A DNA stretch of 24,957 nucleotides from Micromonosporaceae bacterium (GCA_035695905.1 DASRRF010000673.1:1-24957), one strand, 5' to 3'. Positions 4,227 to 15,150 are shown, counted from the stretch's first letter. The notes: generated by a model not told the origin, from the letters alone. Numbers and translations: made by a program.

Positions 4227-5053
4227 CAGTACGCCTCCGCGAGTGATCGGGTCAGGTAGACCAATGTAACGAACGCCGGGAACAGCCGCAGCGGCGCGTC
4301 GTCGCTCAACCGAACGGCCCGGCCGCCGGTGCGCTCGACGCCGCGCAGCCAGGTGGCCTGCTCCGCCATGTCCGGGCTGGCCAGGTCGATGTCGATGGTG
4401 ATGGGCAGCGCGAACTCGGGTGGGCTCAGCCGGTCTAGAGTAGACAGTGCACTGTGGACGCCGCCGCGGATCAGGTCCCGGGCGACGGTCGGGTGCAGGT
4501 GTTGTGCCGCGTACCGGCTGATGGACTCCTTGACCGCGATCTGCGTGATGCCAGGACAGAACCTGGCCGCCTCCGGCCCGACATGCTGGTCGCCGGTGAT
4601 GGCCGCGACCGGGACCCGGAAATGTGCGGCGACCAGCGCGTTCAGGCCGGACTCGCCGGCTTCCTGACCGTTGATCCGCACGTTGGTGACGGCCCGGGGG
4701 TTGTAGGTATGCGACAGCGCGCCCGGGGTAGCGATCGCGGCGTGGTAGCCGAGGAACACGATCGCGTCGTACGACGAGTCCAGCCCCTGCATCATGTAGA
4801 GCGGCTTGAACTTGCCGGACAGGTACGACGCCTGCGCATCCAACGCCTCCGGTGGCAGGTTGCGCATCACCGAGTGCGCGTCGTTCACGCAGATCTCGGT
4901 GAAGCCGGCGGCGTGCGCGCCCGCGATCGCGGCGTTCACCTCGCCGAGCAGCAGCGCGCGCCCGTGCGCGTAGTCGTCCCCGCCGGCCAGGCACTGCTCC
5001 CACGCCACGATGCCGGCGACACCCTCCATGTCCACCGAGATGAATACCTTCAT
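4226..5053 (-). CDS. dppA: M55-family D-aminopeptidase (DppA-like)
   Basis: N-terminus MKVFISVDMEGVAG (DxE metal ligands), NDAH, GYHA, HTY and ESGLN motifs. Confidence 0.92.
   Translation of the reverse strand: MKVFISVDMEGVAGIVAWEQCLAGGDDYAHGRALLLGEVNAAIAGAHAAGFTEICVNDAHSVMRNLPPEALDAQASYLSGKFKPLYMMQGLDSSYDAIVFLGYHAAIATPGALSHTYNPRAVTNVRINGQEAGESGLNALVAAHFRVPVAAITGDQHVGPEAARFCPGITQIAVKESISRYAAQHLHPTVARDLIRGGVHSALSTLDRLSPPEFALPITIDIDLASPDMAEQATWLRGVERTGGRAVRLSDDAPLRLFPAFVTLVYLTRSLAEAY
4447..4459. repeat. Dispersed palindrome, 1-mismatch copy
   Basis: GTGCACTGTGGAC inside dppA, preceded by a degenerate copy at 4433-4445. Confidence 0.75.
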
Positions 5054-5059
5054 CCCCGC

Positions 5060-5065
5060 AGCGTA
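5060..5065 (-). promoter_or_regulatory. -10 element TACGCT positioned for a leaderless dppA transcript
   Basis: TAnnnT hexamer 6 nt upstream of ATG 5053; no SD-like sequence in the 16-nt gap. Confidence 0.5.
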
Positions 5066-5069
5066 TTGG

Positions 5070-6173
5070 TTAACCGCTCACCAGCGTGGCCGGGCCGCCG
5101 AGAAACCGGCCGATGTCGGTCACCTCGGCAGCGAGCCGGCCGTTGGTTCCGCGGGGGAGCGCGGTGAACGGCTCGACCCGCACCCGCAGCGAGCCGGCCT
5201 TGCGGTCCACCCGCCAGGTACCGGCGACCCGGCCGTCGACCAGCACCGCCGGCGTGATGATGCCGCCGCCGGCCTGGATCCTTTTCGCGTATGCCGGATC
5301 CAGGGTGAAGTCCCGGCTGCCGAACCCGAGCAGGTACTCGTCGAACTGGCCGAGCAGGCGGACCACAGGCTCGGCCGGCGCGTCAGGGTCCACAGTGGAC
5401 GGTAGGTAGGCCGGCTCGCCGGCCACGCTCACCTCGGTGTGGTCCGCGGCGACCAGCCCGAACCCGGTACGCGCGCGGCCGATCGGCAGACCGGACCACG
5501 CGGCGAAGTCCCGGGCGGTCGCCGGCCCGTGCCCGGCGAGGTACCGGCCGGCCAGCTCGGCGACCGCGGTGTCCGGGTCGAGCACCGGGCCGGCCGGGGT
5601 ACCCAGCCACTCGTCCAGCAGTACGTAGCTGGGGCCGGGCAGCTCCGGTCCGCGGCAGATCAGCCCGCGCATCGCCGCGTACCCGAACAGGTGGGCCGGT
5701 GCCTGGGTCGCGGGGTCGATCCGTACGCCCTGCTCGGCGATCCGCGCAACGAGCTCGGCGCGGGCCAGCGGCGGCGAGCCGGCGAGCACCGTGGCGATCG
5801 CCGCGAGCCCGCGCTCGCACACCTCATCGGTGAGGTGCAGCTCCTGGCGGCGCCGCCGGCCGGCGGCCGCGAAGATCGGCCCGAGCAGCGCCACCATCCA
5901 GCGCACGTCCGCCGCGGCCAGCATGTGCAGCGTGCCGCGCATCGCCCAGGTACGCACCACGGCCCGATCGTCGTTGATCGCCCGGCTCACGTCGTCCGCG
6001 GTGAGCCCGGCGGTCCGCGCCCGTACCGCGAGCCGGGCGGCCGCGATCGACTGCGCCTGCACCGCACCGACCCGAGCCACCGCGTCCGGCACCCGTACCG
6101 GCCGCGGACCGCACAGCAGCTGCGCCCGCATCCGCAGGGTGCGTACCCGGTCGACGGCGAGGTCGCGGCTCAT
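5070..6173 (-). CDS. AlkZ/YcaQ-family (HTH_42) winged-helix DNA glycosylase-like protein
   Basis: VGAVQAQ (QxQ catalytic motif), RTWAMRGTLH, YLAGHGPAT..DFAAWSGL, LLGQFDEYLLG, VLVDGRVAGTW. Start ATG 6173 preferred; GTG 6215 is the alternative. Confidence 0.85.
   Translation of the reverse strand: MSRDLAVDRVRTLRMRAQLLCGPRPVRVPDAVARVGAVQAQSIAAARLAVRARTAGLTADDVSRAINDDRAVVRTWAMRGTLHMLAAADVRWMVALLGPIFAAAGRRRRQELHLTDEVCERGLAAIATVLAGSPPLARAELVARIAEQGVRIDPATQAPAHLFGYAAMRGLICRGPELPGPSYVLLDEWLGTPAGPVLDPDTAVAELAGRYLAGHGPATARDFAAWSGLPIGRARTGFGLVAADHTEVSVAGEPAYLPSTVDPDAPAEPVVRLLGQFDEYLLGFGSRDFTLDPAYAKRIQAGGGIITPAVLVDGRVAGTWRVDRKAGSLRVRVEPFTALPRGTNGRLAAEVTDIGRFLGGPATLVSG
5388..5400. repeat. Dispersed palindrome GTCCACWGTGGAC, exact copy
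   Basis: GTCCACAGTGGAC inside the AlkZ-family gene. Confidence 0.85.
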
Positions 6174-6180
6174 GCGGATG

Positions 6181-6186
6181 AGTCTG
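6181..6186 (-). promoter_or_regulatory. Candidate -10 (CAGACT) for a leaderless AlkZ-family transcript
   Basis: CAnnnT variant 7 nt upstream of ATG 6173; no SD visible. Confidence 0.3.
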
Positions 6187-6247
6187 CGGCGAAGTTGCCG
6201 GATGTGGGCGAGCACACGCCGGGCCTAGCGCCCCGGCGCGGTGACAT

Positions 6248-6952
6248 TCACTGCGGGCCGGCGGCGCGTACCGTCAACGTGGTCCACGCGCCGAGATAGA
6301 TGGTGTCGCCGTCGCCGACCGGGATCGGCACGTGCGACTCGATCGGCTCGGTGGCCGGGTCGTTGACGTATGTTCCGTTGGCCGAGTCCAGGTCGACCAC
6401 CGCCCAGGAGTGGTCGGGCTGGGCCAGCAGCAGCGCATGCAACCGGGAGACGCCGGGGTCCTCGGGTGGGCCGACGAGATCGATGTCCGGGTAGATCCCC
6501 CGGGACCGGCTCTGCCGGCCGATCGTCACCCGCTCGCCGCTGAGCGGGAAGCGGCGCTCCGGAACGAATCTGGGGTACGCGAGCAGCTCGGCATCGGCGC
6601 CGCCCTGGGCCCGGATGATGTCGAAGTACGCCCGATCGGCGCCCACCACGATCTGCCATCCTGTGTTCGTCGGGGTCGTGGATGGCGCCGGCGGGGCGGC
6701 CGGGGCTCCACCCAGCGACGCGGCGACGAAGTCGTACCCGTCCTGCTCGCAGAATCGACCGGTACGCGGCATGCCGCACTGCGGGCACGGCGTCTGCTCG
6801 GCCACCGGTTCGCCGGCTCCGGTCGGTGCGGGCGGGGCGGCGGGCGAGCCGGTAGCAGGGGCGGCGGGCGGCGGTGTGCCGTCCATCCGGGCACCGCAGA
6901 CGTCGCAGTAGTCACCGGTCGCTGAGTCGTGGCCCTTGGGACACGTGGCCAT
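6248..6952 (-). CDS. FHA-domain protein with two N-terminal Zn-ribbons
   Basis: CPKGH..YCDVCG and CPQCG..FCEQDG; FHA signature IGR...VSRLHA...DLDSANGT. AAGGAG RBS. Confidence 0.9.
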   Translation of the reverse strand: MATCPKGHDSATGDYCDVCGARMDGTPPPAAPATGSPAAPPAPTGAGEPVAEQTPCPQCGMPRTGRFCEQDGYDFVAASLGGAPAAPPAPSTTPTNTGWQIVVGADRAYFDIIRAQGGADAELLAYPRFVPERRFPLSGERVTIGRQSRSRGIYPDIDLVGPPEDPGVSRLHALLLAQPDHSWAVVDLDSANGTYVNDPATEPIESHVPIPVGDGDTIYLGAWTTLTVRAAGPQ

Positions 6953-6972
6953 GGCCGACTCTCCTTCGTTCG

Positions 6973-8262
6973 CTATTCACTCTTCTTCACCCGGATCGTC
7001 TTCACCGAACGCACGTCGGCGATCTCGGCGTCCACCCCGGCGACCTTCTTCTTCAACCGGACCGTGCCGGCCGGCGCGTCGACCACGTCGACGACCTTGG
7101 CCAGCAGCTTCGCGGTGTCCTCGTGGCCGGACTCGTTCGCCAGCTGGACCGCGCGGCCGAGCTTGGCGGTGGCCACCTCGACATCGCCCGCGTCGCGGGC
7201 GGCCAGTCCTTCCTGGATCGCGGCGGCCAGCTCGGCCTGCCCGGTGTAGTGGGCCACCTGAGGATTGAGCTTTGTGGACAGTGCGGTGTCGTCGGTCCAC
7301 TTCGCGAGCACGAGCTGCTCGGCGAGCGGCTGGCCACCGCCGACCACGCTCACCCGGCCGACCAGGCGCTCCTCACCGACGGTGCCCGGCTCGACCTCGA
7401 TGGATACGTGGTAGTCCCGGCTCTCCGCGCCCCAGGCTCCGGTCGGGTACTCGCCGATCCGCGCGCTCACCTCGGCCCGCCGCGGGGTGAGGTCCTCGAC
7501 CTGCGGGAAGACCTGCTTGACGAAGCGTACGGTGGCACCGGCCGGAGTCCACAGGCGCAGCGTGACATGCGCGACCGCCTTGCCCATCGCGGCCTCGGTC
7601 ATCGCCTGGAACGCGGCGGGCAGCTGCGCCGGATCCTCCAGGCCGTCCGCCGTACCGAGCAGGGTGGAGGCCACCGCGCGAAGCTCGCGGGCCACCCAGT
7701 CGGTACCCACGCCGCGGCTGTCGCAGACGAACTTTCCCTGGCAGATCTCCAGTACCCGTTGAAGTTCTTCCGGGGTTTCATGCTGGTTCTGCCCGTCGGT
7801 GAGCAGGATCGCGTGCTTCACCTCGGCGTCCTGGCCGGCGAACAGCCGGTTGGCCAGGTCCAGCCAGCGGCCGATCGCGGTGCCACCGTCCGCGCGCAGC
7901 CGGGCCACCACGGCCTTGGCCTCGGCCCGGGTCTGCGCCGAGGCGGGCACCATCCGGCGCTCGCGCGGGTAGACCATGTGCGCCTGGGCGTTGCCGCCCA
8001 CCACCGCGAACGCCACCCCGTCGCGCAGTGTGTCGATCGCGGTCGCGGTGGCCTTCTTCGCCTCGGCCATCTTCGATGCCGGACTGCCCATCGAGCCGGA
8101 GCAGTCGACCATCACGACCTGGGCGGCGGTCGGTGGCCCGGCGCCGTCGCGCAGGCCGGCTCCGCTGGTCGTGACGGTGACCACCGCGTCGACCACCCGC
8201 CCGCCGTCGGGCAGGTACTCGTTCTGGTAGACGTCCGCCTGGAAGTCGGGTTGCCCGGTCAT
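6973..8262 (-). CDS. von Willebrand factor A (vWA) domain protein
   Basis: MIDAS motif DCSGSM, GGTAIG, LLTDG. ATG 8262 overlaps the PP2C stop (ATGA). Confidence 0.88.
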   Translation of the reverse strand: MTGQPDFQADVYQNEYLPDGGRVVDAVVTVTTSGAGLRDGAGPPTAAQVVMVDCSGSMGSPASKMAEAKKATATAIDTLRDGVAFAVVGGNAQAHMVYPRERRMVPASAQTRAEAKAVVARLRADGGTAIGRWLDLANRLFAGQDAEVKHAILLTDGQNQHETPEELQRVLEICQGKFVCDSRGVGTDWVARELRAVASTLLGTADGLEDPAQLPAAFQAMTEAAMGKAVAHVTLRLWTPAGATVRFVKQVFPQVEDLTPRRAEVSARIGEYPTGAWGAESRDYHVSIEVEPGTVGEERLVGRVSVVGGGQPLAEQLVLAKWTDDTALSTKLNPQVAHYTGQAELAAAIQEGLAARDAGDVEVATAKLGRAVQLANESGHEDTAKLLAKVVDVVDAPAGTVRLKKKVAGVDAEIADVRSVKTIRVKKSE

Positions 8263-9242
8263 TGCGCTGACCCTTCTGGTGGTTCGTACGGCGGGAACGG
8301 CAGTACGGCGATGGCGATGTTGTCCACCCCGCCCGAATCCAGCGCGAACTGGGTCAGCGCGGCGGCGGTCGCGGTCGGCGGTTCGCCGATCGCGGCGGTG
8401 GCCTCGGCGAGCTTGTCCGGTTCGGGCAGGTAGCGGTGCAGGCCGTCGCTGCAGACCAGGACCGTGCCCGGTCCGGTGGGGGCGAACACCACAACGGTGG
8501 GCTCGGTGTCTCCGGCGTCGGCGCCCAGCCACCGGATCAGGGCCAGCGATCGCGGGTCCGCGTCGGCGGCCGGTGCGGTCGGCTGCCCGGCCTCGCCACC
8601 GCGGGCGGCCAACTGGGCGGCCAGCGAGTCGTCGGTGGTCAGGCAGCTGGACTCGGCTCCGTCCAGCCAGTACGCCCGGCTGTCGCCCACCCAGCCGACG
8701 GTGACCTCGGTGCCGGTGACGATCGCCGACACGTACGTACAGCTGGGCGGGTTGTCCGCGGGCGTGCCCAGCGCAACGACGGCCTTGGCCGCCGCCCTGG
8801 TGCCCGCCTCGGTGGCGGTCCTCGGCGAGCCGCCCCGGCCGAGCACCTCGAGCAGTGCGGGCATGCAGGCGTCGATCGCGGCGGTGGCGGCGGTGTCCGG
8901 CCGGGTCGAGCTGGACACGCCGTCGCAGACCACCGCGATGCTCGCCGCACCGAGGGTGGCGATGGCCATCGCGTCTTCGTTGCGGGCCTTGTGGTGGCCG
9001 CGGTCGGTGGCCCCGCCGAGCCCGCCCAGATCCAGTTCGGCGTGGTCCTGCCCGGCCCCGCGGCGCTGGCCGCAGTTCTCGCAGTACCCCTGCGCGCCCA
9101 CGTCGGACGACCCGCAATGCGGACACGGGCCGGGTAACGCCTTGGAGGACAGCCATTGCAGCGCCGGGATGAGCCGGTGCCCGCAGGACTCGCAGAACCG
9201 GTCGCCATCCACTATGGACACTCCACAGGCGGGGCAGCTCAT
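8259..9242 (-). CDS. PP2C/PPM-family Ser/Thr phosphatase with two N-terminal Zn-ribbons
   Basis: TDRG..NEDA, VVCDGVSSS, VGDSRAY, CSDGL, GGVDNI. N-terminal CPACG..FCESCG and CPHCG..YCENCG. ATG 9242 overlaps the kinase stop (ATGA). Confidence 0.92.
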   Translation of the reverse strand: MSCPACGVSIVDGDRFCESCGHRLIPALQWLSSKALPGPCPHCGSSDVGAQGYCENCGQRRGAGQDHAELDLGGLGGATDRGHHKARNEDAMAIATLGAASIAVVCDGVSSSTRPDTAATAAIDACMPALLEVLGRGGSPRTATEAGTRAAAKAVVALGTPADNPPSCTYVSAIVTGTEVTVGWVGDSRAYWLDGAESSCLTTDDSLAAQLAARGGEAGQPTAPAADADPRSLALIRWLGADAGDTEPTVVVFAPTGPGTVLVCSDGLHRYLPEPDKLAEATAAIGEPPTATAAALTQFALDSGGVDNIAIAVLPFPPYEPPEGSAQ

Positions 9243-11476
9243 ACCAGCGTCCTCGGTCGAACCGCGTTGGCCCGGTCGACCAGCGCTATCCGGTCGTCCG
9301 GGTCGTGCGCCACCTTGGCCAGGATCCGGTACGCCTGCTCCAGGCCGAGGCGCAGCGAGCGTTCGGTCAGCTCGTGCCCGAGCACCCGGCCACCGGCCGG
9401 ACGGCCGGAGCCGGTCCACTCCAGCGCCGCCTCCAGCGTCTCGACGGTGAGCTGCGCCTGCCGGCCGACGTCCAGCCCGAGGCGGACCAGCCGGCCGGAC
9501 GCGTCGACCAGGTCGGCCTCGGCCAGCGCCTGGCGATCCCCGGCCAGCCGGGCGCGCAGCGCGGCGACCTGTGCCGCGGCACGGTAACTCGAGTTGTCCG
9601 GCACCTCGTCGAGTACGGCCACGGCACCGGCCCGATCGTGCGTACCCAGGCGGAGCCGGGCCAGCCCGAACGCGGCGCTGACATACCCGCGGTCGGACCG
9701 CCAGACGCGCTCGTAGAGGCGGGCGGCAGTGTCGGCATCGCCGCTCCACTCGGCGGCCACCGCCAGGGCCAGCCGGGGCGCCGGCTCACCGGGCAGCGCG
9801 TCGTAGACCGCGTCGAACGACTCCCTCGCCGCGGCGGGCTGCCTGCCGGCCAGCGCGGCCAGCCCGCGATACCAGTCGATCCGCCAGTCGGTGGGCTCGG
9901 TGCCGGCCAGCGCATCCAGCTCGGCCGCGGCCTTGGCCAGGTCGCCGCGCTCGATGTTCGCCAGGATCAGCCGCAGGGACACCTCGACGGTACGCACCGG
10001 TGCGGTGTGCAGCGCGCGTACCAGCTCGTCGGGGTCGGTACTGCTCAGCGTCGCCAGGAAGCCGGCGCCCTCGTCCGCGGTGTCCACCTGCGGGACCGGC
10101 AGCGCGGCGGCGATCGCCGGACCGTCGAACTCCGCCGGCTGCGCCCCGTCGCCGACCGCGCCGGCCTGGGTACCGAAGGCCCGCCGCTCCGGGGTGAACC
10201 GGGTGGATGCCGCGGGCCTGGCCACCCCGTCGGCCGCGGAGAGCACCTCGCGCAGTACGCCGAGGAGTTGCTCGCGCAGTTCGCCGGCGGACTGGAACCG
10301 CTGGGCCGGATCGGGGTGGGTGGCCCGGCGCAGCAGCCGGTAGTACGACTCCTCCTGGGCCAGCAGCGGGATGTCGGCCCGGTCCGGCAGCCGTTCGGCG
10401 TACCTGCTGGAGAAGCCGGAGAAGTTGAAGCTGAGTACGGCCAGCGCCCGCCCGACCGTGTAGATGTCAGCCGGGACCGACGGGCCGACCCGGGCAACCT
10501 CGGGCGCCTGGTACCCGGGGGTGCCGTAGACCGCGCTCTGCTCGTCGTCGGCCCGGCGGACCGCGCCGAGGTCGATGAGCTTGAGCTGTTCCTCGGCGTG
10601 GATGACGTTGTCCGGCTTGAAGTCACAGAACAGCAGATCCCGGTCGTGCAGGTAGCCCAGCGCCGGCAGGATCTCCACCCCGTACGCGAGGACCTGGGCG
10701 AGCGGCAGCGCCGAGCCGGACCCGGCCTGTGCCCGGTACGCGAGCAGCATGTCGCGCAGCGAACGGCCGCCGACGTACTCCATCACGATGTAGCCGACCA
10801 TGGTGCCGCTGGCCTTGTCCGGGTGCTGTACGAAGTCGTGGATCTTCACGATGTTCGGGTGGTCCACCTCGACCAGGAACCGGCGCTCGGTCACCGCCGC
10901 CGCCATCGCGTCGGCATCGCCGGTGTTGATCAGTCCTTTGAGGACAACCCAGCGGTCGAGCACCGAGTCGCTGACATTGCGATCCCGGGCCAGGTAGATC
11001 CAGCCAAGGCCGCCGAAGGCCAGGCAGCCGAGAATCTCGTACCGGTTGTTCACCAGATCGCCGGCGCCGAGCCGGGGATGGAACGAGAACCGCGCGCCGC
11101 AGTTGGCACAGAAGCCTTCGACGAGCCCGGGCTTGCCGTCCCGGCTGCGGCCGACCGGCTTGTCACACTGGCCGCAGTACCGCCGCGACTCGGATACCTG
11201 CGGATCGGCCATCACCGCGGTGGCCGGATCCCGCAACGGGACCCGGGGCATGTCGATGAGACCGGCGCCCAGCCCGCCCCGGGTCGAACCGCGCCGGCCG
11301 GTAGAGCCGGACGCCGACCGCGTCTGTCCGGTGTGGACGGTGTGGGCAGCCGTCGCACCAGCGGTCGCGGTCGCGGTCGCCGGCGTGGTACCCGGTGGCG
11401 CCTTGCGCCCGCACTCGTCGCAGTACCCCTCCGGCCCGTACGTACCGGTGCAGCCCGCCCGTACACACGCGGTCAT
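9239..11476 (-). CDS. pknG: PknG-like Ser/Thr protein kinase (Zn-ribbon, rubredoxin-like CxxC pair, kinase, TPR-like C-terminus)
   Basis: GCLAFGGLGWIYLA, VVLKGL, TERRFL, non-RD FCDFKPDN, LKLIDLGAV, YGTPGYQAPE. YCGQC...FCANC precedes the kinase domain. Lies downstream of glnX-glnH. ATG 11476 has a GGGAG RBS and ATGA overlap. Confidence 0.9.
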   Translation of the reverse strand: MTACVRAGCTGTYGPEGYCDECGRKAPPGTTPATATATAGATAAHTVHTGQTRSASGSTGRRGSTRGGLGAGLIDMPRVPLRDPATAVMADPQVSESRRYCGQCDKPVGRSRDGKPGLVEGFCANCGARFSFHPRLGAGDLVNNRYEILGCLAFGGLGWIYLARDRNVSDSVLDRWVVLKGLINTGDADAMAAAVTERRFLVEVDHPNIVKIHDFVQHPDKASGTMVGYIVMEYVGGRSLRDMLLAYRAQAGSGSALPLAQVLAYGVEILPALGYLHDRDLLFCDFKPDNVIHAEEQLKLIDLGAVRRADDEQSAVYGTPGYQAPEVARVGPSVPADIYTVGRALAVLSFNFSGFSSRYAERLPDRADIPLLAQEESYYRLLRRATHPDPAQRFQSAGELREQLLGVLREVLSAADGVARPAASTRFTPERRAFGTQAGAVGDGAQPAEFDGPAIAAALPVPQVDTADEGAGFLATLSSTDPDELVRALHTAPVRTVEVSLRLILANIERGDLAKAAAELDALAGTEPTDWRIDWYRGLAALAGRQPAAARESFDAVYDALPGEPAPRLALAVAAEWSGDADTAARLYERVWRSDRGYVSAAFGLARLRLGTHDRAGAVAVLDEVPDNSSYRAAAQVAALRARLAGDRQALAEADLVDASGRLVRLGLDVGRQAQLTVETLEAALEWTGSGRPAGGRVLGHELTERSLRLGLEQAYRILAKVAHDPDDRIALVDRANAVRPRTLV
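11361..11380. repeat. 6-nt tandem repeat (GCGGTC)x3 encoding Thr-Ala repeats in the kinase N-terminal linker
   Basis: Read directly: gcggtc gcggtc gcggtc gc. Confidence 0.8.
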
Positions 11477-12699
11477 GTCGGCTCCCTCAGGCCCGGTGTT
11501 GTCCCTGCCCGCTCCGCCAACCGCCGCTGGTAGCGCAGCACCGCGCGGGTCGCCGCCGGCAGGTCGCACGGGCTCGTGTACAGCAGCTCCTGCGCCTGCC
11601 GGTGCAGGTCGGACAGCTCAGTGTCCTCGGTGAACCCGGACCGGGCCGCCTTCGCGCGGTAGGCGTCCAGCCGGCCGCGAAGCTCGGTGCGGCGGGCGAG
11701 CAGCCCGTCGGCCGCCGCCCGCAACGCGTCGGCACGCTGCTGCCCCGCGGCCACGTCGCGCTGCACGGCGGCCAGCTCGTCGGCGAGCTGCGCCCACCGG
11801 CCTGCCGCGGCGAGCGGCTCGAGGCCGGCCACCCGGCCGCGCAGCGCGCCGGCGATCGATGGTGCCGCGGGCAGGCCTGGTTCGGCAATCTTCGCCAGCG
11901 CCGTGGCGTAGGACCGGCCCGCGTCGTCCTCGGCCTTGGCGACCAGGCTCACCGCCGCGTCCAGTTCCGCAATCCCTTGCGGGTACGCGGTACGCACCCG
12001 CGCCAGCTCGGCCAGCCGATCCCGGGTGGTGGTCAGCTCGGTGCCGATCCGGTCCAGCGCACCAGTGTCCATTGTGGACAACGGGTCGGCGAGCGCGGCG
12101 TCGGTGGCCTCGGTCAGCCTCGCCCGGAGCCGGTCGAGATCCTTGCCGAGCGGGCCGGCCCCGGCACCCAGCGACTCGGCCGACGCCTGCGCGGCGGCCA
12201 GCGCCTCGGCCGTCGGGGCCAGCCGGTTGGCCAGCGCGGCGCAGGCGGCGTCGACCTGGTCCAGTGCCGCGACCACCTCGCCGTTGGCCGATTCCAGCCG
12301 GCGGGCGAGCTCGGCCACGGTGAGCGTCTCGGCCGGCGGGCCGGTGGCGGTCTCGTCCAGCGGTACGCCGCTGGCGGCCAGCCGGATCGAGCGCTCGCGG
12401 AGCAGCCCGGTCAACTCGGTCAGCTCGTCCGGTCCCGGCCGGGACCGCTCCACCCGGATGGTCTGCGCCCGCTCGAGCCGATCCTTCACCGTGTTGAACT
12501 GCGCCCACAAAGTATCCGTGCGGGCCTGTACGTCGCGGCCGACCTGGGCGGTGCGGCCGGTCACCGTACCGCGCCGGAGGAACGCCAGGCCGGCGTGGCT
12601 GTCCAGGGCGAACATCCCCGCGGCGATCCGGTCGTACCCGGCGACCAGCGCGACGAGCGCCAGGTCGACCTCGTCCCGGGTCATCGGCGGCCGGTTCAT
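11473..12699 (-). CDS. Hypothetical Ala/Leu/Arg-rich, predicted all-helical (coiled-coil-like) protein
   Basis: Fills the gap between glnH (stop 12705) and pknG, with a 5-nt gap and an ATGA overlap. Heptad-like L/A pattern, no signal peptide or TM, C-terminal LLYTSPCDL..A..AV..YQ. Confidence 0.8.
   Translation of the reverse strand: MNRPPMTRDEVDLALVALVAGYDRIAAGMFALDSHAGLAFLRRGTVTGRTAQVGRDVQARTDTLWAQFNTVKDRLERAQTIRVERSRPGPDELTELTGLLRERSIRLAASGVPLDETATGPPAETLTVAELARRLESANGEVVAALDQVDAACAALANRLAPTAEALAAAQASAESLGAGAGPLGKDLDRLRARLTEATDAALADPLSTMDTGALDRIGTELTTTRDRLAELARVRTAYPQGIAELDAAVSLVAKAEDDAGRSYATALAKIAEPGLPAAPSIAGALRGRVAGLEPLAAAGRWAQLADELAAVQRDVAAGQQRADALRAAADGLLARRTELRGRLDAYRAKAARSGFTEDTELSDLHRQAQELLYTSPCDLPAATRAVLRYQRRLAERAGTTPGLREPT
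12067..12079. repeat. Dispersed palindrome, 1-mismatch copy
   Basis: (T)GTCCATTGTGGAC(A) inside the helical hypothetical gene. Confidence 0.75.
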
Positions 12700-12704
12700 C
12701 GCGG

Positions 12705-13694
12705 CTAGTCCCGGTACCGGGCCGGCGGCGGGTTCGGCGTGGCACCGAGCCCGGACAGCCACTTGCGGTAGATCTGTTGCCAGCCCCCGTCGTCGCGTAG
12801 CTGCTGGAGTACCGCGTTGACGAAGCGGACCAGGTCGGTCGCGTCCTTCGCCATCGCCACCCCGTACGGCTCGCTGGTGATCTTGTCGCCGACCACCTTG
12901 GTGTTCAGATCCTGCGCGGCCAGGCCGGCCAGGATCGTGTCATCCGTGGAAATCGCGGTCACCTGCCCCTGCTGAAGCATGACCAGGCAGTCGGTCCAGT
13001 CGGTGACCGCGACCGGCAGCGGGTGGGACGGGGCCGCGGCGACGGTACGGATGGACGTACTGCCGTCGGTGGCGCAGACCTTCTTGCCGCCGAGATCGGC
13101 GATCCCGGCCACGCTGGAGTCCCGGGTGACCAGTACGCGCTGGCCGGCGGTGAAGTACTCGGTGGAGAACGCGACCTGCTCCAGCCGCTCGCACGTCATC
13201 GTCATGGTACGGACGACGATGTCCACGTCGCCGTTCTGGATCGCCGGGATCCGCTCCGCGGAGCTGATCGCCTTGAACTGGATCCGATCCGGGTCGCCGA
13301 ACAGCGCCCGGGCGACCTCGTGCGCGATGTCGATGTCGAAGCCGCTCAGCGTACCGGTCAACGGGTCGCGGAAGCCGAACAGGTAGGTGTTCTGGTCGAC
13401 CCCGACGATCAACCGTCCACGTTGGACAATCCGGCCCATGGTCGAGCCGGCCGGCATCTGCCCGGGCGCCGGCCGGGAACCCTGCGGGCGCAGGCTCGCC
13501 CGGGGATCGCAGGAGGCCGGCGGGGCCGCCGACGTACTCGGCACCGCATACGGGTCCTTCGCTCCGACCGGTCTCGGCACCACCGGCGACGCGTCGGCCC
13601 GCCGGGGGACCGGCTGCGCCGCCCCGCCACACGCCCCGAGCACGGTGATGGCGGCGATCAGCGTGGCGACGAGTGCGATCCGCTTGCGTGTCAT
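12705..13694 (-). CDS. glnH: GlnH-like amino-acid-binding lipoprotein (SBP family 3)
   Basis: Lipobox VLGA-C; GVDQNTYLFG, GFDIDIA, TMTMTCER, WTDCLVMLQQG..ISTDDTILAGL, EPYGV. ATGA overlap with glnX. Confidence 0.88.
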   Translation of the reverse strand: MTRKRIALVATLIAAITVLGACGGAAQPVPRRADASPVVPRPVGAKDPYAVPSTSAAPPASCDPRASLRPQGSRPAPGQMPAGSTMGRIVQRGRLIVGVDQNTYLFGFRDPLTGTLSGFDIDIAHEVARALFGDPDRIQFKAISSAERIPAIQNGDVDIVVRTMTMTCERLEQVAFSTEYFTAGQRVLVTRDSSVAGIADLGGKKVCATDGSTSIRTVAAAPSHPLPVAVTDWTDCLVMLQQGQVTAISTDDTILAGLAAQDLNTKVVGDKITSEPYGVAMAKDATDLVRFVNAVLQQLRDDGGWQQIYRKWLSGLGATPNPPPARYRD

Positions 13695-15067
13695 CGGTAC
13701 TCCGCGATCCGTTGCTGCATTCCGCCGGCCACGCCGATGGCGAGCAGGGCGGTGAGCAGGGCGATGGCTACCGCGACACCGGACAGCGCACCGGAGGCGG
13801 CGGACACCTGACGGTTGAACCGGTCGGTGTTGTGCGCGATCGCCGCGGCCAGGTCATCGTCGAGCTTGATAAACACGCTACCCGCACTGGTCGGGTCGGA
13901 GCCGATCGCCGCGGCCACCGCCTCGCTGTACCTGCCGTCGTTGTCCAGTGTGCGGATGTTCTTGTGTACGGCCTGCCAGGCCCGGGCGTTGGCGATCGCC
14001 GAGTCGAGCCGGTTCCGGGTGGCGTTGTCGGTGGCGTGGGTACGGGCCTGACCCAGCAGGCCGCCCGCGCCGTCCGCGCCGATCAGCTGCTCCAGCACCG
14101 TGACGTAGTCCTGCTCGAACCCGCCGCCGGTGCCCCGGGCGACCAGGGTCAGCGCCTCGTCGCTGCGCCCCTGCAGGGCAGCGATGCGGGCCTCGGCGAG
14201 CACGTTGACCTGCGCCGAGCCGTCCCGCCGGCTCTGCGTCAGGTGACTGCCGGCCCGGCTGGAGGCGACCCCGAGCCAGACCAGCGAGACCAGGGTGGCC
14301 GCGGCCGCGGCGAGCAGGCCAACGTTGAACACCCGGTTGGTCCGCCGGCTCAGGTAGCGCAGCGCGTACCCGAGCGCGGCCAGGGTCAGCACCAGCAGCG
14401 GTACGGCCAGCCACGGGTACCCGCCCGCGGCGCCGCGGGCCGCGTCCAACCGGGCCTGAACCGCGCGGAACAACGCCTTCGCCGCCGGCAGCAGGGTGCC
14501 GCGCATCATCCCGGAAGCCTCGCGTAGGTACGCCGCGCCGAGCGGTACCCGCTGCCGGCTGTAGGTCCGCGCGGTCTCCACGAGCCCGGTGTAGACCGGT
14601 AGGGCCGAGGTGATGTCGGCGATGGCCTTGGCACCGGGGCCGTCGCTGATCCCGCCGCCCGCGGCGACCGCGAGCGCGTCGGTCGCACCGGCGATATCCG
14701 CCTGGTACCGGTCACGCAGCGCGGCCGGCTCCAGGCCGCTGGACAGGAATGCGCTGGCCGCGGTGGCATCCGCGTCGGACAGCGAGCGGTAGAGGTTCTG
14801 CGCGGCGACCGCGAGCGCGCCGCTGTGCGCCGTCGCGCCGTCGATCTCGCCGGCCCGGTCGCGTACTCCGAGCACACCCGCCACTCCCGCACCGAGACCG
14901 AGCGCGAGCAACACCGCCATCAGCGCGGTCAGCCGGCCCGGCGTACGGCGCAACCGGACCGCCGCGCGATGCCGCAACGGAACCCGGCGTGGCCGCTCCG
15001 CAAGCGGCCCGGTGGCGGGCCCAACGGGTCGTGCGACCGGCGCTTGCGGGCGCGAAGTAACGGTCAC
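13691..15067 (-). CDS. glnX: GlnX-like four-TM membrane sensor with two extracellular helical domains
   Basis: TM1-ectodomain-TM2-RRTNRVFNVGL loop-TM3-ectodomain-TM4 topology; LYRSLSDADATAASAFL and EALTLVARG motifs; located immediately upstream of glnH. Start is uncertain (GTG 15067 preferred, TTG 15136 is the ORF maximum). Confidence 0.8.
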   Translation of the reverse strand: MTVTSRPQAPVARPVGPATGPLAERPRRVPLRHRAAVRLRRTPGRLTALMAVLLALGLGAGVAGVLGVRDRAGEIDGATAHSGALAVAAQNLYRSLSDADATAASAFLSSGLEPAALRDRYQADIAGATDALAVAAGGGISDGPGAKAIADITSALPVYTGLVETARTYSRQRVPLGAAYLREASGMMRGTLLPAAKALFRAVQARLDAARGAAGGYPWLAVPLLVLTLAALGYALRYLSRRTNRVFNVGLLAAAAATLVSLVWLGVASSRAGSHLTQSRRDGSAQVNVLAEARIAALQGRSDEALTLVARGTGGGFEQDYVTVLEQLIGADGAGGLLGQARTHATDNATRNRLDSAIANARAWQAVHKNIRTLDNDGRYSEAVAAAIGSDPTSAGSVFIKLDDDLAAAIAHNTDRFNRQVSAASGALSGVAVAIALLTALLAIGVAGGMQQRIAEYR

Positions 15068-15134
15068 CGGAACCCCATCTGCCGTTCGTTCATCGTGTCC
15101 ACCGGCCTCCCCGCCGTCGTGCACCGCAGACGCC

Positions 15135-15140
15135 AAGGTA
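15135..15140 (-). promoter_or_regulatory. Candidate -10 (TACCTT) for the glnX-pknG operon
   Basis: TAnnnT hexamer just downstream of the SARP stop, followed by GGAGG at 15106-15110. Confidence 0.3.
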
Positions 15141-15150
15141 GCCGATCACC

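What the first reader, a model, noticed from the sequence alone, without database searches (positions are those of the whole stretch)
6248..15067. Self-contained seven-gene PknG phosphorelay: GlnX-GlnH-X-PknG-PP2C-vWA-FHA
Seen: seven genes joined by ATGA overlaps or 5- and 20-nt gaps. They encode a membrane sensor, a ligand-binding lipoprotein with no ABC permease or ATPase, an unknown helical protein, a kinase, a phosphatase, a MIDAS vWA protein and a pThr reader. Established knowledge: in Mycobacterium and Corynebacterium the operon is glnX-glnH-pknG, GlnH senses amino acids, and the FHA substrate GarA/OdhI and the phosphatase are encoded elsewhere. Kinase-PP2C-vWA triads occur separately in Ter-associated/YegIKL-type stress systems. 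Inference: a fusion of both logics into a complete writer-eraser-reader circuit, with an output (vWA/FHA complex) different from GarA control of the TCA cycle. Similar gene strings may exist in other filamentous actinomycetes, but I know of no mechanistic description of the four extra genes as a system.
Basis: partly seen in the sequence, partly recalled or inferred. Interest (0 to 1): 0.75.

Follow-up and report, generated by a model that had tools for sequence, protein, structure and literature searches.

The report
Extended seven-gene PknG nutrient-signalling operon
The seven genes are real and form the widespread, apparently undescribed long form of the actinobacterial PknG amino-acid-sensing operon, adding its own phosphatase, an archaeal ArnB/ArnA-like vWA/FHA switch and an unnamed helical protein to the three genes studied in Mycobacterium and Corynebacterium.

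Summary
Observation confirmed. Seven minus-strand genes (15067-6248) are joined by four ATGA overlaps and gaps of 5 and 20 nt. They encode GlnX, lipoprotein GlnH, an unnamed helical protein X, a full PknG, a zinc-ribbon PP2C, a MIDAS vWA protein and a zinc-ribbon FHA protein.

The four extra genes are conserved with pknG, in the same order, in Micromonosporaceae, Pseudonocardiaceae and Streptomycetaceae. Actinomadura and Spirillospora carry a rearranged form. However, this is not a local fusion. In the PknG tree the three-gene mycobacterial operons nest inside the extended ones, so the textbook operon looks like a reduced form.

The cassette is also not shown to be self-contained: the genome has a true GarA/OdhI orthologue elsewhere.

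The vWA protein is ArnB-like. It has the ArnB_C domain, its orthologue is PDB 4FX5, and ArnB is the next-best fold match. Together with the zinc-ribbon FHA protein it mirrors the archaeal ArnA/ArnB phospho-switch. X has an EzrA-like helical-repeat fold and belongs to a large unnamed family.

No binding or phosphorylation was shown here. I found no paper describing the cassette. This scan had already noted it in at least 16 other genomes.

The parts
13691..15067 (-). glnX: four-TM signal-transduction membrane protein with two extracytoplasmic domains of about 150 aa. The start is uncertain (GTG 15067 or TTG 15136).
   Evidence: NF058618 GlnX family, 408 bits against a cut-off of 250. Four hydrophobic segments. 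Its stop overlaps the glnH start as ATGA.
12705..13694 (-). glnH: lipoprotein solute-binding sensor, predicted to bind Asp/Glu.
   Evidence: SBP_bac_3 at 9.6e-33. Full-length match to M. tuberculosis GlnH 6H2T at E 1e-84. The ligand residues R147, T162, R169, W232 and D250 are kept, with K161R and S164T (residue roles from PMC6069109). Lipobox L-G-A-C.
11473..12699 (-). X: 408-aa soluble all-helical protein of an unnamed family with an invariant Arg-rich C-terminal motif. It is a candidate adaptor or scaffold.
   Evidence: No Pfam, NCBIfam or PADLOC match. 1694 representative clusters at E<=1e-10. AF2 model pLDDT 92.9. Best solved match is EzrA 4UXV (Foldseek probability 0.99, E 0.05; VIA Z 11.9). 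35 of 37 hits in a class-wide sample lie 1.9-3.3 kb upstream of the PknG_TPR match.
9239..11476 (-). pknG: Ser/Thr kinase with an extra N-terminal zinc ribbon, an S/T-rich linker, a rubredoxin domain, a kinase domain and a TPR domain.
   Evidence: PknG_TPR 6.8e-90, PknG_rubred 8.7e-26, Pkinase 3.2e-25. M. tuberculosis PknG 2PZI at E 4.4e-162 over residues 69-743. It is the only PknG_TPR match in the genome. The extra zinc ribbon is present in 74 of 78 loci with X and in 0 of 10 loci lacking X and vWA.
8259..9242 (-). PP2C phosphatase with an N-terminal double zinc ribbon. It is the operon's own eraser.
   Evidence: PP2C_2 9.5e-10 and DZR 8e-08. Stp1/IreP-type model 1.1e-25. PstP 1TXO at 7.8e-12. 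ATGA overlaps on both sides.
6973..8262 (-). ArnB-like vWA protein: MIDAS vWA domain, beta-sandwich, C-terminal helical ArnB_C domain and a basic tail.
   Evidence: VWA_3 plus VWA_3_C (PF18571) at 2.7e-18. PDB 4FX5 at E 4.5e-128. Fold search of the AF2 model (pLDDT 85.4) ranks 4FX5 first, then ArnB 8S05 (E 1.6e-18) and vWA2 5A8J (E 4.9e-17). MIDAS residues and tail residues S419 and T422 are invariant in 23 orthologues.
6248..6952 (-). ArnA-like reader: two zinc knuckles, a Pro-rich linker and an extended FHA domain.
   Evidence: FHA 2.7e-13. The pThr-binding G-R, S-x-x-H and N-G-T residues are kept across orthologues. It follows vWA after 20 nt and is conserved at this position in the 43 full loci.

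Best explanation
This is the long form of the actinobacterial PknG amino-acid-sensing operon, inherited as one seven-gene cassette.

Shown here: the gene content, the tight coupling, the conservation with pknG, and the family or fold of each protein.

Inferred from the mycobacterial and corynebacterial work: lipoprotein GlnH binds Asp/Glu outside the cell, four-TM GlnX passes the signal inward, and PknG is activated through its TPR domain.

Inferred from the anatomy: PknG phosphorylates GarA (encoded elsewhere), its own S/T-rich N-terminal linker, and the ArnB-like vWA protein, probably in that protein's C-terminal helical domain or basic tail. The zinc-ribbon FHA protein then binds the phosphorylated vWA protein, as archaeal ArnA binds phospho-ArnB. 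This would form a nutrient-dependent complex that the operon's own PP2C takes apart again.

The soluble EzrA-like protein X, whose gene overlaps the pknG start, most likely acts as an adaptor or scaffold. It would link the very small cytoplasmic parts of GlnX, or the vWA hub, to the zinc-ribbon-bearing PknG. What the vWA/FHA complex controls downstream is unknown.
For: - Gene model and junctions.
- Families.
- True PknG: 2PZI at E 4.4e-162.
- GlnH ligand residues conserved.
- GlnX family match and four TM segments.
- GarA/OdhI orthologue present: 206.5 bits against a cut-off of 200, with its MerR-type neighbour.
- Same seven-gene order in 43 surveyed loci from Micromonosporaceae, Pseudonocardiaceae, Streptomyces, Kitasatospora and Actinacidiphila. 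24 Actinomadura, Spirillospora and related loci carry X-PknG-PP2C-vWA-FHA.
- Unbiased class sample: 72 of 300 genomes have PknG_TPR. X lies just upstream in 35 of them. Further X-negative loci still carry GlnX-GlnH-ORF-PknG-PP2C-vWA-FHA with a weak X homologue.
- Flanking genes are not conserved, so the unit is exactly these seven genes.
- Genomes lacking PknG also lack X and vWA, for example the complete genome G297.
- The vWA protein is ArnB-like. The published ArnA/ArnB mechanism is in PMC7472852, PMC6509490 and PMC12852372.
- FHA pThr-binding residues are intact.
- MIDAS residues and tail Ser/Thr are invariant.
- The PknG extra zinc ribbon tracks X and vWA.
Against: - No binding, phosphorylation or transcript was measured; every mechanistic step is analogy or inference.
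- The genome is a 71%-complete MAG.
- 80 of the surveyed loci were chosen through X, so their counts are ascertained. The class sample corrects this only partly, because few candidates per genome were scored.
- The AU test group was named after the tree was seen.
- PP2C and FHA keep their zinc ribbons in a variant cassette that lacks vWA and X, so zinc-ribbon docking on vWA cannot be the whole story.
- In the searches of relatives, 13 of 24 other genera of the same family gave no PknG_TPR match, including the same-genus genome G401 (94% complete), which also lacked X and vWA. The cassette is therefore dispensable.
- The EzrA likeness of X is below the level that excludes a generic helical-bundle match.
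Confidence: 0.6

Rival explanations
1. Modulator-only reading. PP2C, vWA, FHA and X have no output of their own. They tune the classical PknG-to-GarA route. The FHA protein would compete with GarA for the autophosphorylated PknG linker, the vWA protein and X would hold the kinase at GlnX, and the PP2C would reset PknG and GarA.
For: - GarA is present in the genome.
- The PknG linker keeps an S/T cluster ahead of the conserved R-G-x-L-G-A-G-L motif, which is where GarA's FHA domain docks in M. tuberculosis (PMC8546545).
- The cassette encodes no DNA-binding or enzymatic effector domain.
Against: - The vWA protein is the most conserved member, with a mean column identity of 66% against 51% for PknG and X.
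- The vWA protein stays beside PknG-like kinases even where PP2C and FHA are missing (L029, L040, L096, L105, L106).
- In Sulfolobus the homologous ArnA/ArnB pair has downstream effects of its own (PMC12852372).
Confidence: 0.25
2. First reader's reading. This is a lineage-specific fusion of a glnX-glnH-pknG operon with a TerY-P/YegIKL-type kinase-PP2C-vWA triad. It creates a self-contained circuit whose signalling bypasses GarA.
For: - Kinase-PP2C-vWA triads are a known mobile theme, including in actinobacteria (PMC7159879; TerY-P triad cited in PMC11090510).
- Writer, eraser and reader are all in one operon.
Against: - There is only one kinase in the cassette, and it is an orthologous PknG.
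- The PknG tree groups the loci by their named families (Micromonosporaceae, Pseudonocardiaceae, Streptomyces, Actinomadura/Spirillospora), and the three-gene forms nest inside the extended ones.
- GarA is kept.
- No Ter genes flank the cassette.
- The vWA protein is of the ArnB type.
Confidence: 0.07
3. The PP2C-vWA-FHA part is an anti-phage or conflict module that merely sits beside pknG.
For: - Ser/Thr kinases, vWA and FHA domains occur in defence systems.
- The kinase domain matches PD-T4-6 and Mad6 kinase models.
Against: - Those matches cover only the generic kinase domain. X, vWA, FHA, GlnX and GlnH match no PADLOC model.
- G+C is uniform across the window.
- There is no effector domain, and gene order is stable across families.
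Confidence: 0.03

Closest known systems
GlnX-GlnH-PknG-GarA/OdhI pathway of Mycobacterium and Corynebacterium (PMC6069109, PMC9769921, PMC8546545)
   Same: Orthologous PknG with rubredoxin, kinase and TPR domains. GlnX-family four-TM protein. GlnH lipoprotein with the Asp/Glu-contact residues. glnX-glnH upstream of pknG on one strand. GarA/OdhI encoded elsewhere in the genome.
   Different: A 408-aa helical gene X lies between glnH and pknG. PknG carries an extra N-terminal zinc ribbon. A dedicated PP2C, an ArnB-like vWA protein and a zinc-ribbon FHA protein follow pknG. In the model organisms dephosphorylation is done by a phosphatase encoded elsewhere (Ppp in C. glutamicum, PMC9769921), and no vWA or second FHA partner has been described.
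ArnA (zinc-finger FHA) / ArnB (vWA) phospho-switch of Sulfolobus acidocaldarius, with kinases ArnC/ArnD and phosphatase PP2A (PMC6509490, PMC7472852, PMC12852372)
   Same: The vWA protein has the same tripartite build (vWA, beta-sandwich, ArnB_C helical domain) and an intact MIDAS site. The partner is an FHA protein with an N-terminal zinc ribbon. A Hanks kinase and a Ser/Thr phosphatase act on the pair. Both systems are tied to nutrient status.
   Different: Sequence identity to ArnB is only 12-14%. The kinase here is PknG with a membrane sensor. The phosphatase is PP2C, not PP2A. The kinase and phosphatase also carry zinc ribbons. No archaellum is involved, so the downstream target must differ. 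Complex formation is untested here.
Kinase-PP2C-vWA triads: TerY-P triad, E. coli YegI-YegK-YegL, actinobacterial zinc-ribbon-kinase/PP2C/vWA sets (PMC7159879), the Deinococcus DRA0331-0334 vWA-kinase-FHA-PP2C operon (bioRxiv 10.64898/2026.01.23.701218), and P. aeruginosa PpkA/PppA/Fha1 (own knowledge)
   Same: A Hanks kinase, a PP2C and a vWA protein, often with an FHA protein, are encoded together as a phospho-switch.
   Different: Those kinases are not PknG and have no GlnH/GlnX sensor. None has the X protein. There is no Ter, T6SS or GTPase context here. The vWA protein here is of the ArnB_C type.
EzrA (spectrin-like cell-division regulator of Bacillota), as the nearest fold to X
   Same: A rod of repeated three-helix bundles. 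EzrA was the best solved-structure match in three searches.
   Different: X has no Pfam EzrA match and no membrane anchor, and its context is different. The score is within the range seen for unrelated helical bundles, so this is a resemblance of fold only.

Membership tests
PknG kinase (GlnX-GlnH-PknG system) | Rubredoxin-like domain, Hanks kinase domain and C-terminal PknG-type TPR domain in one protein | tested here: met
   PF16919, PF00069 and PF16918 are all above their cut-offs. 2PZI matches at E 4.4e-162 over residues 69-743.
PknG kinase (GlnX-GlnH-PknG system) | Orthology to the studied PknGs rather than to a paralogue | tested here: met
   It is the single PknG_TPR match in the genome. 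In the tree it sits in the main clade that also holds the Mycobacteriaceae PknGs, apart from the long-branch PknG-like paralogues L104-L106.
PknG kinase (GlnX-GlnH-PknG system) | GlnX-family membrane protein and GlnH solute-binding lipoprotein encoded upstream | tested here: met
   NF058618 at 408 bits. Four TM segments. GlnH matches 6H2T at E 1e-84 with ligand residues kept. ATGA coupling of the two genes.
PknG kinase (GlnX-GlnH-PknG system) | GarA/OdhI substrate present in the genome | tested here: met
   NF041660 at 206.5 bits against a cut-off of 200, at G000:C734. The protein is 150 aa and has a MerR-type neighbour.
PknG kinase (GlnX-GlnH-PknG system) | Asp/Glu-stimulated phosphorylation of GarA by PknG | not testable with these tools
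   Needs kinase assays or phosphoproteomics.
ArnA/ArnB-type FHA-vWA module | vWA protein with a tripartite fold ending in the ArnB_C (PF18571) helical domain | tested here: met
   PF18571 at 66 bits against a cut-off of 25.8. Fold search ranks 4FX5, then ArnB 8S05 at E 1.6e-18 (TM 0.57/0.64), then vWA2 5A8J at E 4.9e-17. Hoffmann 2019 equates the 4FX5 and vWA2 architecture (PMC6509490).
ArnA/ArnB-type FHA-vWA module | Intact MIDAS site | tested here: met
   D53, S55, S57, T128 and D156 are invariant in 23 orthologues.
ArnA/ArnB-type FHA-vWA module | Partner protein with an N-terminal zinc ribbon and a pThr-competent FHA domain, encoded adjacently | tested here: met
   FHA at 2.7e-13. Two Cys knuckles and the G-R, S-x-x-H and N-G-T residues are conserved. 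A 20-nt gap follows vWA.
ArnA/ArnB-type FHA-vWA module | Zinc finger of the RanBP2 type, as in ArnA | tested here: inconclusive
   Pfam gave no zinc-finger family for the FHA protein. The PP2C ribbon matches DZR and Zn_ribbon models. The ribbon type was not resolved.
ArnA/ArnB-type FHA-vWA module | Phosphorylation-dependent physical complex of the FHA and vWA proteins | not tested
This needs pull-downs, or ITC with phosphopeptides.
TerY-P / YegIKL kinase-PP2C-vWA triad | Adjacent Hanks kinase, PP2C and stand-alone vWA genes | tested here: met
   pknG, PP2C and vWA are joined by ATGA overlaps.
TerY-P / YegIKL kinase-PP2C-vWA triad | Association with Ter (tellurite-resistance) or Hsp70-like YegD genes | tested here: not met
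   The immediate neighbours are a SARP regulator, an AlkZ-like glycosylase, an M55 peptidase and a dioxygenase-like protein. None of them is conserved beside the cassette. Only these four flanking ORFs were scanned.
EzrA family (for protein X) | Match to the EzrA sequence family (PF06160) | tested here: not met
   Pfam returned no family for X at E<=0.01.
EzrA family (for protein X) | Spectrin-like repeated three-helix-bundle fold | tested here: inconclusive
   4UXV is the top hit (Foldseek probability 0.99, E 0.05, TM 0.39; VIA Z 11.9, rmsd 12 A, 338 residues aligned; Atlas TM 0.53). A Z under about 13 is not decisive for helical bundles.
EzrA family (for protein X) | N-terminal membrane anchor | tested here: not met
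   No 19-residue window reaches the 1.6 hydropathy threshold (maximum 1.56), and the model is helical throughout.

The most novel reading that the evidence does not exclude
The ArnB-like vWA protein is the hub of a membrane-proximal signalosome. It would recruit kinase, phosphatase and FHA reader through their shared N-terminal zinc ribbons, as ArnB binds the ArnA zinc finger. X would be the spectrin-like strut that ties this hub to GlnX. On this reading an ancient nutrient-responsive vWA/FHA switch is shared by Crenarchaeota and Actinomycetota. PknG signalling in most actinomycetes would then have a second, unexplored output. Mycobacteria and corynebacteria would have lost it.
Probability: 0.3. 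Interest if true: 0.8.

Novelty: new variant of a known kind. Interest (0 to 1): 0.6.

Why it matters
PknG is studied as a tuberculosis virulence factor, as a lever for glutamate production in Corynebacterium, and through GarA as a handle on antibiotic yield.

All mechanistic work uses the three-gene operon. In the class sample here, the plain three-gene form was confined mainly to the 16 genomes of the mycobacterial family (plus a few second copies) among 72 PknG-positive genomes. Most others carry the longer cassette.

If the four extra proteins are real partners, several things follow:
- The unsolved step from GlnX to the soluble kinase gains a candidate adaptor, X.
- The pathway gains a dedicated phosphatase.
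- It gains a second phospho-dependent complex whose archaeal counterpart is already structurally understood.

All of this can be tested directly in genetically tractable Streptomyces strains.

Tried and rejected
- Complex prediction of full PknG with X residues 205-408 gave no verdict (score 0.00 in both runs, controls not run). It counts neither for nor against binding.
- The promoter and terminator scan of 5000-15500 found no promoter-like site. It found one chance-level terminator-like site on the wrong strand, so it says nothing about the transcript.
- PADLOC gave only generic kinase-domain matches.
- Apparent X homologues in genomes without PknG (G414, G432) are C-terminal helical tails of Acyl_transf_3 membrane proteins. 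I set them aside as helical or low-complexity likeness.
- A second vWA paralogue (L103) stands alone among unrelated genes.
- The upstream SARP regulator and the downstream AlkZ gene were tested as possible cassette members and are not conserved.
- Seven full-text searches (PknG with glnX/glnH, Streptomyces, vWA/FHA, GarA and SCO4 locus tags; the TerY triad; FHA/vWA/PP2C in actinobacteria; ArnA/ArnB) found no description of the extended operon. Bhattacharyya 2018 says only that the glnX-glnH-pknG arrangement is conserved. The library lacks most subscription journals, so this is absence in what was searched.
- The 4-nt-overlap count across orthologues picks the start codon nearest the overlap, so it is an upper bound.


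Full report
**Observation**

The window is about 72% G+C throughout. On the minus strand between 15067 and 6248 there are seven ORFs:
- glnX, 15067-13691. A TTG at 15136 behind a GAGG is an alternative start.
- glnH, 13694-12705.
- X, 12699-11473.
- pknG, 11476-9239.
- PP2C, 9242-8259.
- vWA, 8262-6973.
- FHA, 6952-6248.

Four junctions are ATGA overlaps. The glnH/X gap is 5 nt and the vWA/FHA gap is 20 nt.

**Identities**

- GlnX matches the GlnX-family NCBIfam model at 408 bits against a cut-off of 250. It has four hydrophobic segments that frame two extracytoplasmic domains of about 150 residues. This leaves only a roughly 70-residue N-terminal tail, a 12-residue loop and a short C-terminus in the cytoplasm.
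- GlnH is an SBP_bac_3 lipoprotein. It aligns end to end with M. tuberculosis GlnH (6H2T, E 1e-84). It keeps the residues that Bhattacharyya et al. (PMC6069109) assign to Asp/Glu recognition, with two conservative changes.
- The kinase has all three PknG domains and matches the M. tuberculosis PknG structure 2PZI at E 4.4e-162. It is the only PknG_TPR match in the genome.
- The phosphatase is a PP2C behind a double zinc ribbon.
- The vWA protein carries VWA_3 plus VWA_3_C, and its MIDAS residues are invariant in orthologues.
- The last protein has two zinc knuckles, a Pro-rich linker and an FHA domain with the canonical pThr-binding residues.
- X has no match in Pfam, NCBIfam or PADLOC.
- No ABC permease or ATPase lies nearby.

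**Conservation**

X belongs to a large unnamed family.
- A word-index search returned 174 relatives (the best 120 were listed), almost all named 'hypothetical' where a name was given, from Micromonosporaceae, Pseudonocardiaceae and Actinoallomurus.
- A profile search of 1.8 billion representatives found 1694 clusters at E<=1e-10.
- At least 569 species genomes encode a relative.

I fetched 80 of those loci with 10-kb flanks and laid the seven window proteins on them.
- The full string, in the same order and orientation, recurs in Micromonospora, Phytohabitans, Plantactinospora, Kibdelosporangium, Amycolatopsis, Actinophytocola, Kutzneria, Streptomyces, Kitasatospora and Actinacidiphila.
- Actinomadura and Spirillospora have X-PknG-PP2C-vWA-FHA followed by a GlnX-like gene and glnH.
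- Among the 91 PknG loci long enough for the tree, 43 show all seven genes and 24 show the five-gene core.
- The window's flanking genes (SARP regulator, AlkZ-like glycosylase, M55 peptidase, dioxygenase-like protein) are not conserved beside the cassette. The conserved unit therefore coincides with the finding's borders.

**An unbiased look**

In 300 genomes of the same class, each at least 90% complete, 72 have a PknG_TPR match and 37 have X at E<=1e-10. For 35 of those 37, X lies 1.9-3.3 kb upstream of the TPR match on the same contig.

I fetched 20 regions, most of them around PknG matches that had no X hit.
- Seven of them, from four further families, still read GlnX-GlnH, an ORF of about 1.3 kb, then PknG-PP2C-vWA-FHA.
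- Several of those ORFs are weak but significant X homologues through the C-terminal motif.
- The plain three-gene form was confined mainly to family f2. That family has 16 genomes and gives the highest scores to the Mycobacterium-derived Pfam model.

In 40 relatives, PknG, X and vWA are present or absent largely together, and always adjacent when present. The complete genome G297 lacks all three. So does the same-genus genome G401, which is 94% complete. The cassette is therefore co-inherited but dispensable.

**Direction of evolution**

I built a PknG tree of 91 loci.
- The window groups with the other Micromonosporaceae.
- The four Mycobacteriaceae three-gene loci fall inside a supported clade (SH-aLRT 98) that otherwise consists of extended loci from Actinomadura, Pseudonocardiaceae and Streptomyces.
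- Forcing the 76 X-bearing rows into one clade costs 40.7 log-likelihood units, p-AU 0.023. The caveat is that the group was named after the tree was seen.
- A second reduced form, GlnX-GlnH-PknG-PP2C-FHA, lacks X and vWA and has a long Gln/Pro/Gly/Tyr-rich linker in the FHA protein. It forms its own clade in four genera of the window's family.

Repeated loss is a simpler account than repeated gain of the same four genes in the same order.

**The vWA/FHA pair**

- The vWA protein matches PDB 4FX5 (Caci_2163 of Catenulispora acidiphila) at E 4.5e-128.
- Hoffmann et al. [quoted passage not shown]
- Watad et al. (PMC12852372) call the last domain ArnB_C.
- My AF2 model has pLDDT 85.4. It finds 4FX5 first, then ArnB in the ArnAB co-crystal (8S05, E 1.6e-18) and vWA2 (5A8J, E 4.9e-17).
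- ArnA is a zinc-finger FHA protein. Its zinc finger binds the ArnB beta-sandwich and C-terminal domain. Its FHA domain binds the ArnB C-terminal domain once kinase ArnC has phosphorylated it. Phosphatase PP2A dissolves the complex, and the whole switch answers to starvation (PMC7472852, PMC12852372).

The window encodes the same two protein types side by side, with a kinase and a phosphatase in the same operon and an amino-acid sensor in front. In the vWA orthologues the disordered basic tail has invariant S419 and T422. These are candidate acceptor sites, which is an inference.

**Protein X and the zinc ribbons**

- The AF2 model of X is confident (pLDDT 92.9). It is a rod of three-helix bundles.
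- EzrA is the best solved match in Foldseek, VIA-align (Z 11.9) and the Atlas. These scores do not exclude a generic helical likeness. X also has no EzrA sequence match and no membrane anchor.
- The most conserved part of X is an Arg-rich C-terminal stretch with about 20 invariant residues.
- PknG, PP2C and FHA all begin with similar zinc ribbons.
- The extra ribbon on PknG is present in 74 of 78 loci with X and in none of the 10 loci that lack both X and vWA. Mycobacterial PknG lacks it. These counts are not phylogenetically independent, but they cover at least three separate reduced lineages.
- This pattern fits docking of the ribbon on X or on the ArnB-like hub. Against a simple hub model, PP2C and FHA keep their ribbons in the variant without vWA.

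**What remains of the classical pathway**

The genome has a GarA/OdhI orthologue above the NCBIfam cut-off. It is 150 residues long and sits next to a MerR-type gene. The genome also has a PstP-like PP2C beside FhaA/FhaB-like genes. The PknG linker keeps an S/T cluster just ahead of the conserved R-G-x-L-G-A-G-L motif. 'Self-contained' is therefore not supported, and signalling to GarA is likely retained.

**Literature and earlier notes**

Seven full-text searches found no description of the extended operon. The PknG papers state only that glnX-glnH-pknG is conserved. Kinase-PP2C-vWA triads, with or without an FHA protein, are known elsewhere.

After I had reached my reading, I found that this scan had noted the same cassette in at least 16 other genomes, with similar conclusions. 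Those are AI notes and not independent evidence. No claim here rests on the unpublished genome G001, which gave only a sub-threshold match.

**Verdict**

The cassette is a new variant of known kinds: PknG sensing joined to an ArnAB-like phospho-switch and an unnamed scaffold. It is widespread, apparently unstudied and directly testable. This window is one ordinary instance of it.

Noticed in passing
window 15151-18345 (-): A 1064-aa SARP/AfsR-type regulator (Trans_reg_C, BTAD, NB-ARC, TPR) ends 15 nt (to the TTG at 15136) or 84 nt (to the GTG at 15067) upstream of glnX on the same strand. It is not found beside the cassette in the other loci, apart from a 36%-identical match elsewhere in L057.
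   Followed up: partly
window 5070-6215 (-): An AlkZ-like DNA glycosylase gene starts 33 nt after the FHA stop on the same strand. It is not conserved beside the cassette.
   Followed up: partly
L090, L092, L093, L094 (genomes G404, G416, G420, G421): A reduced cassette, GlnX-GlnH-PknG-PP2C-FHA, lacks X and vWA. Its PknG lacks the extra N-terminal zinc ribbon. Its FHA protein (395 aa in L092) has a long repetitive Gln/Pro/Gly/Tyr-rich linker. G404 also holds a second, very divergent full cassette (L091).
   Followed up: partly
L105, L106 (Streptomyces-like genomes G054, G286) and L096 (G437): Divergent PknG-like kinases are paired only with an ArnB-like vWA gene, in genomes that also have the full cassette. 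This suggests that kinase plus vWA is the minimal pair.
   Followed up: no
   Followed up: partly
L101:8330-10303 and L102:8387-10447: Acyl_transf_3 membrane proteins of about 660-690 aa have C-terminal helical tails that match the N-terminal half of the X profile (E 8e-21 and 4e-34), in genomes without PknG. This is probably helical likeness.
   Followed up: partly
G000:C759:146-1348: The window's genome has a PstP-like PP2C next to two FhaA/FhaB-like FHA genes. This is the usual actinobacterial cell-division phospho-cluster, so the cassette's PP2C is an additional phosphatase.
   Followed up: no
window 9239-11476, 8259-9242, 6248-6952 (N-termini): Kinase, phosphatase and FHA protein each start with a similar C-x2-4-C ... 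[YF]-C-[DE]-x-C-G zinc ribbon.
   Followed up: partly
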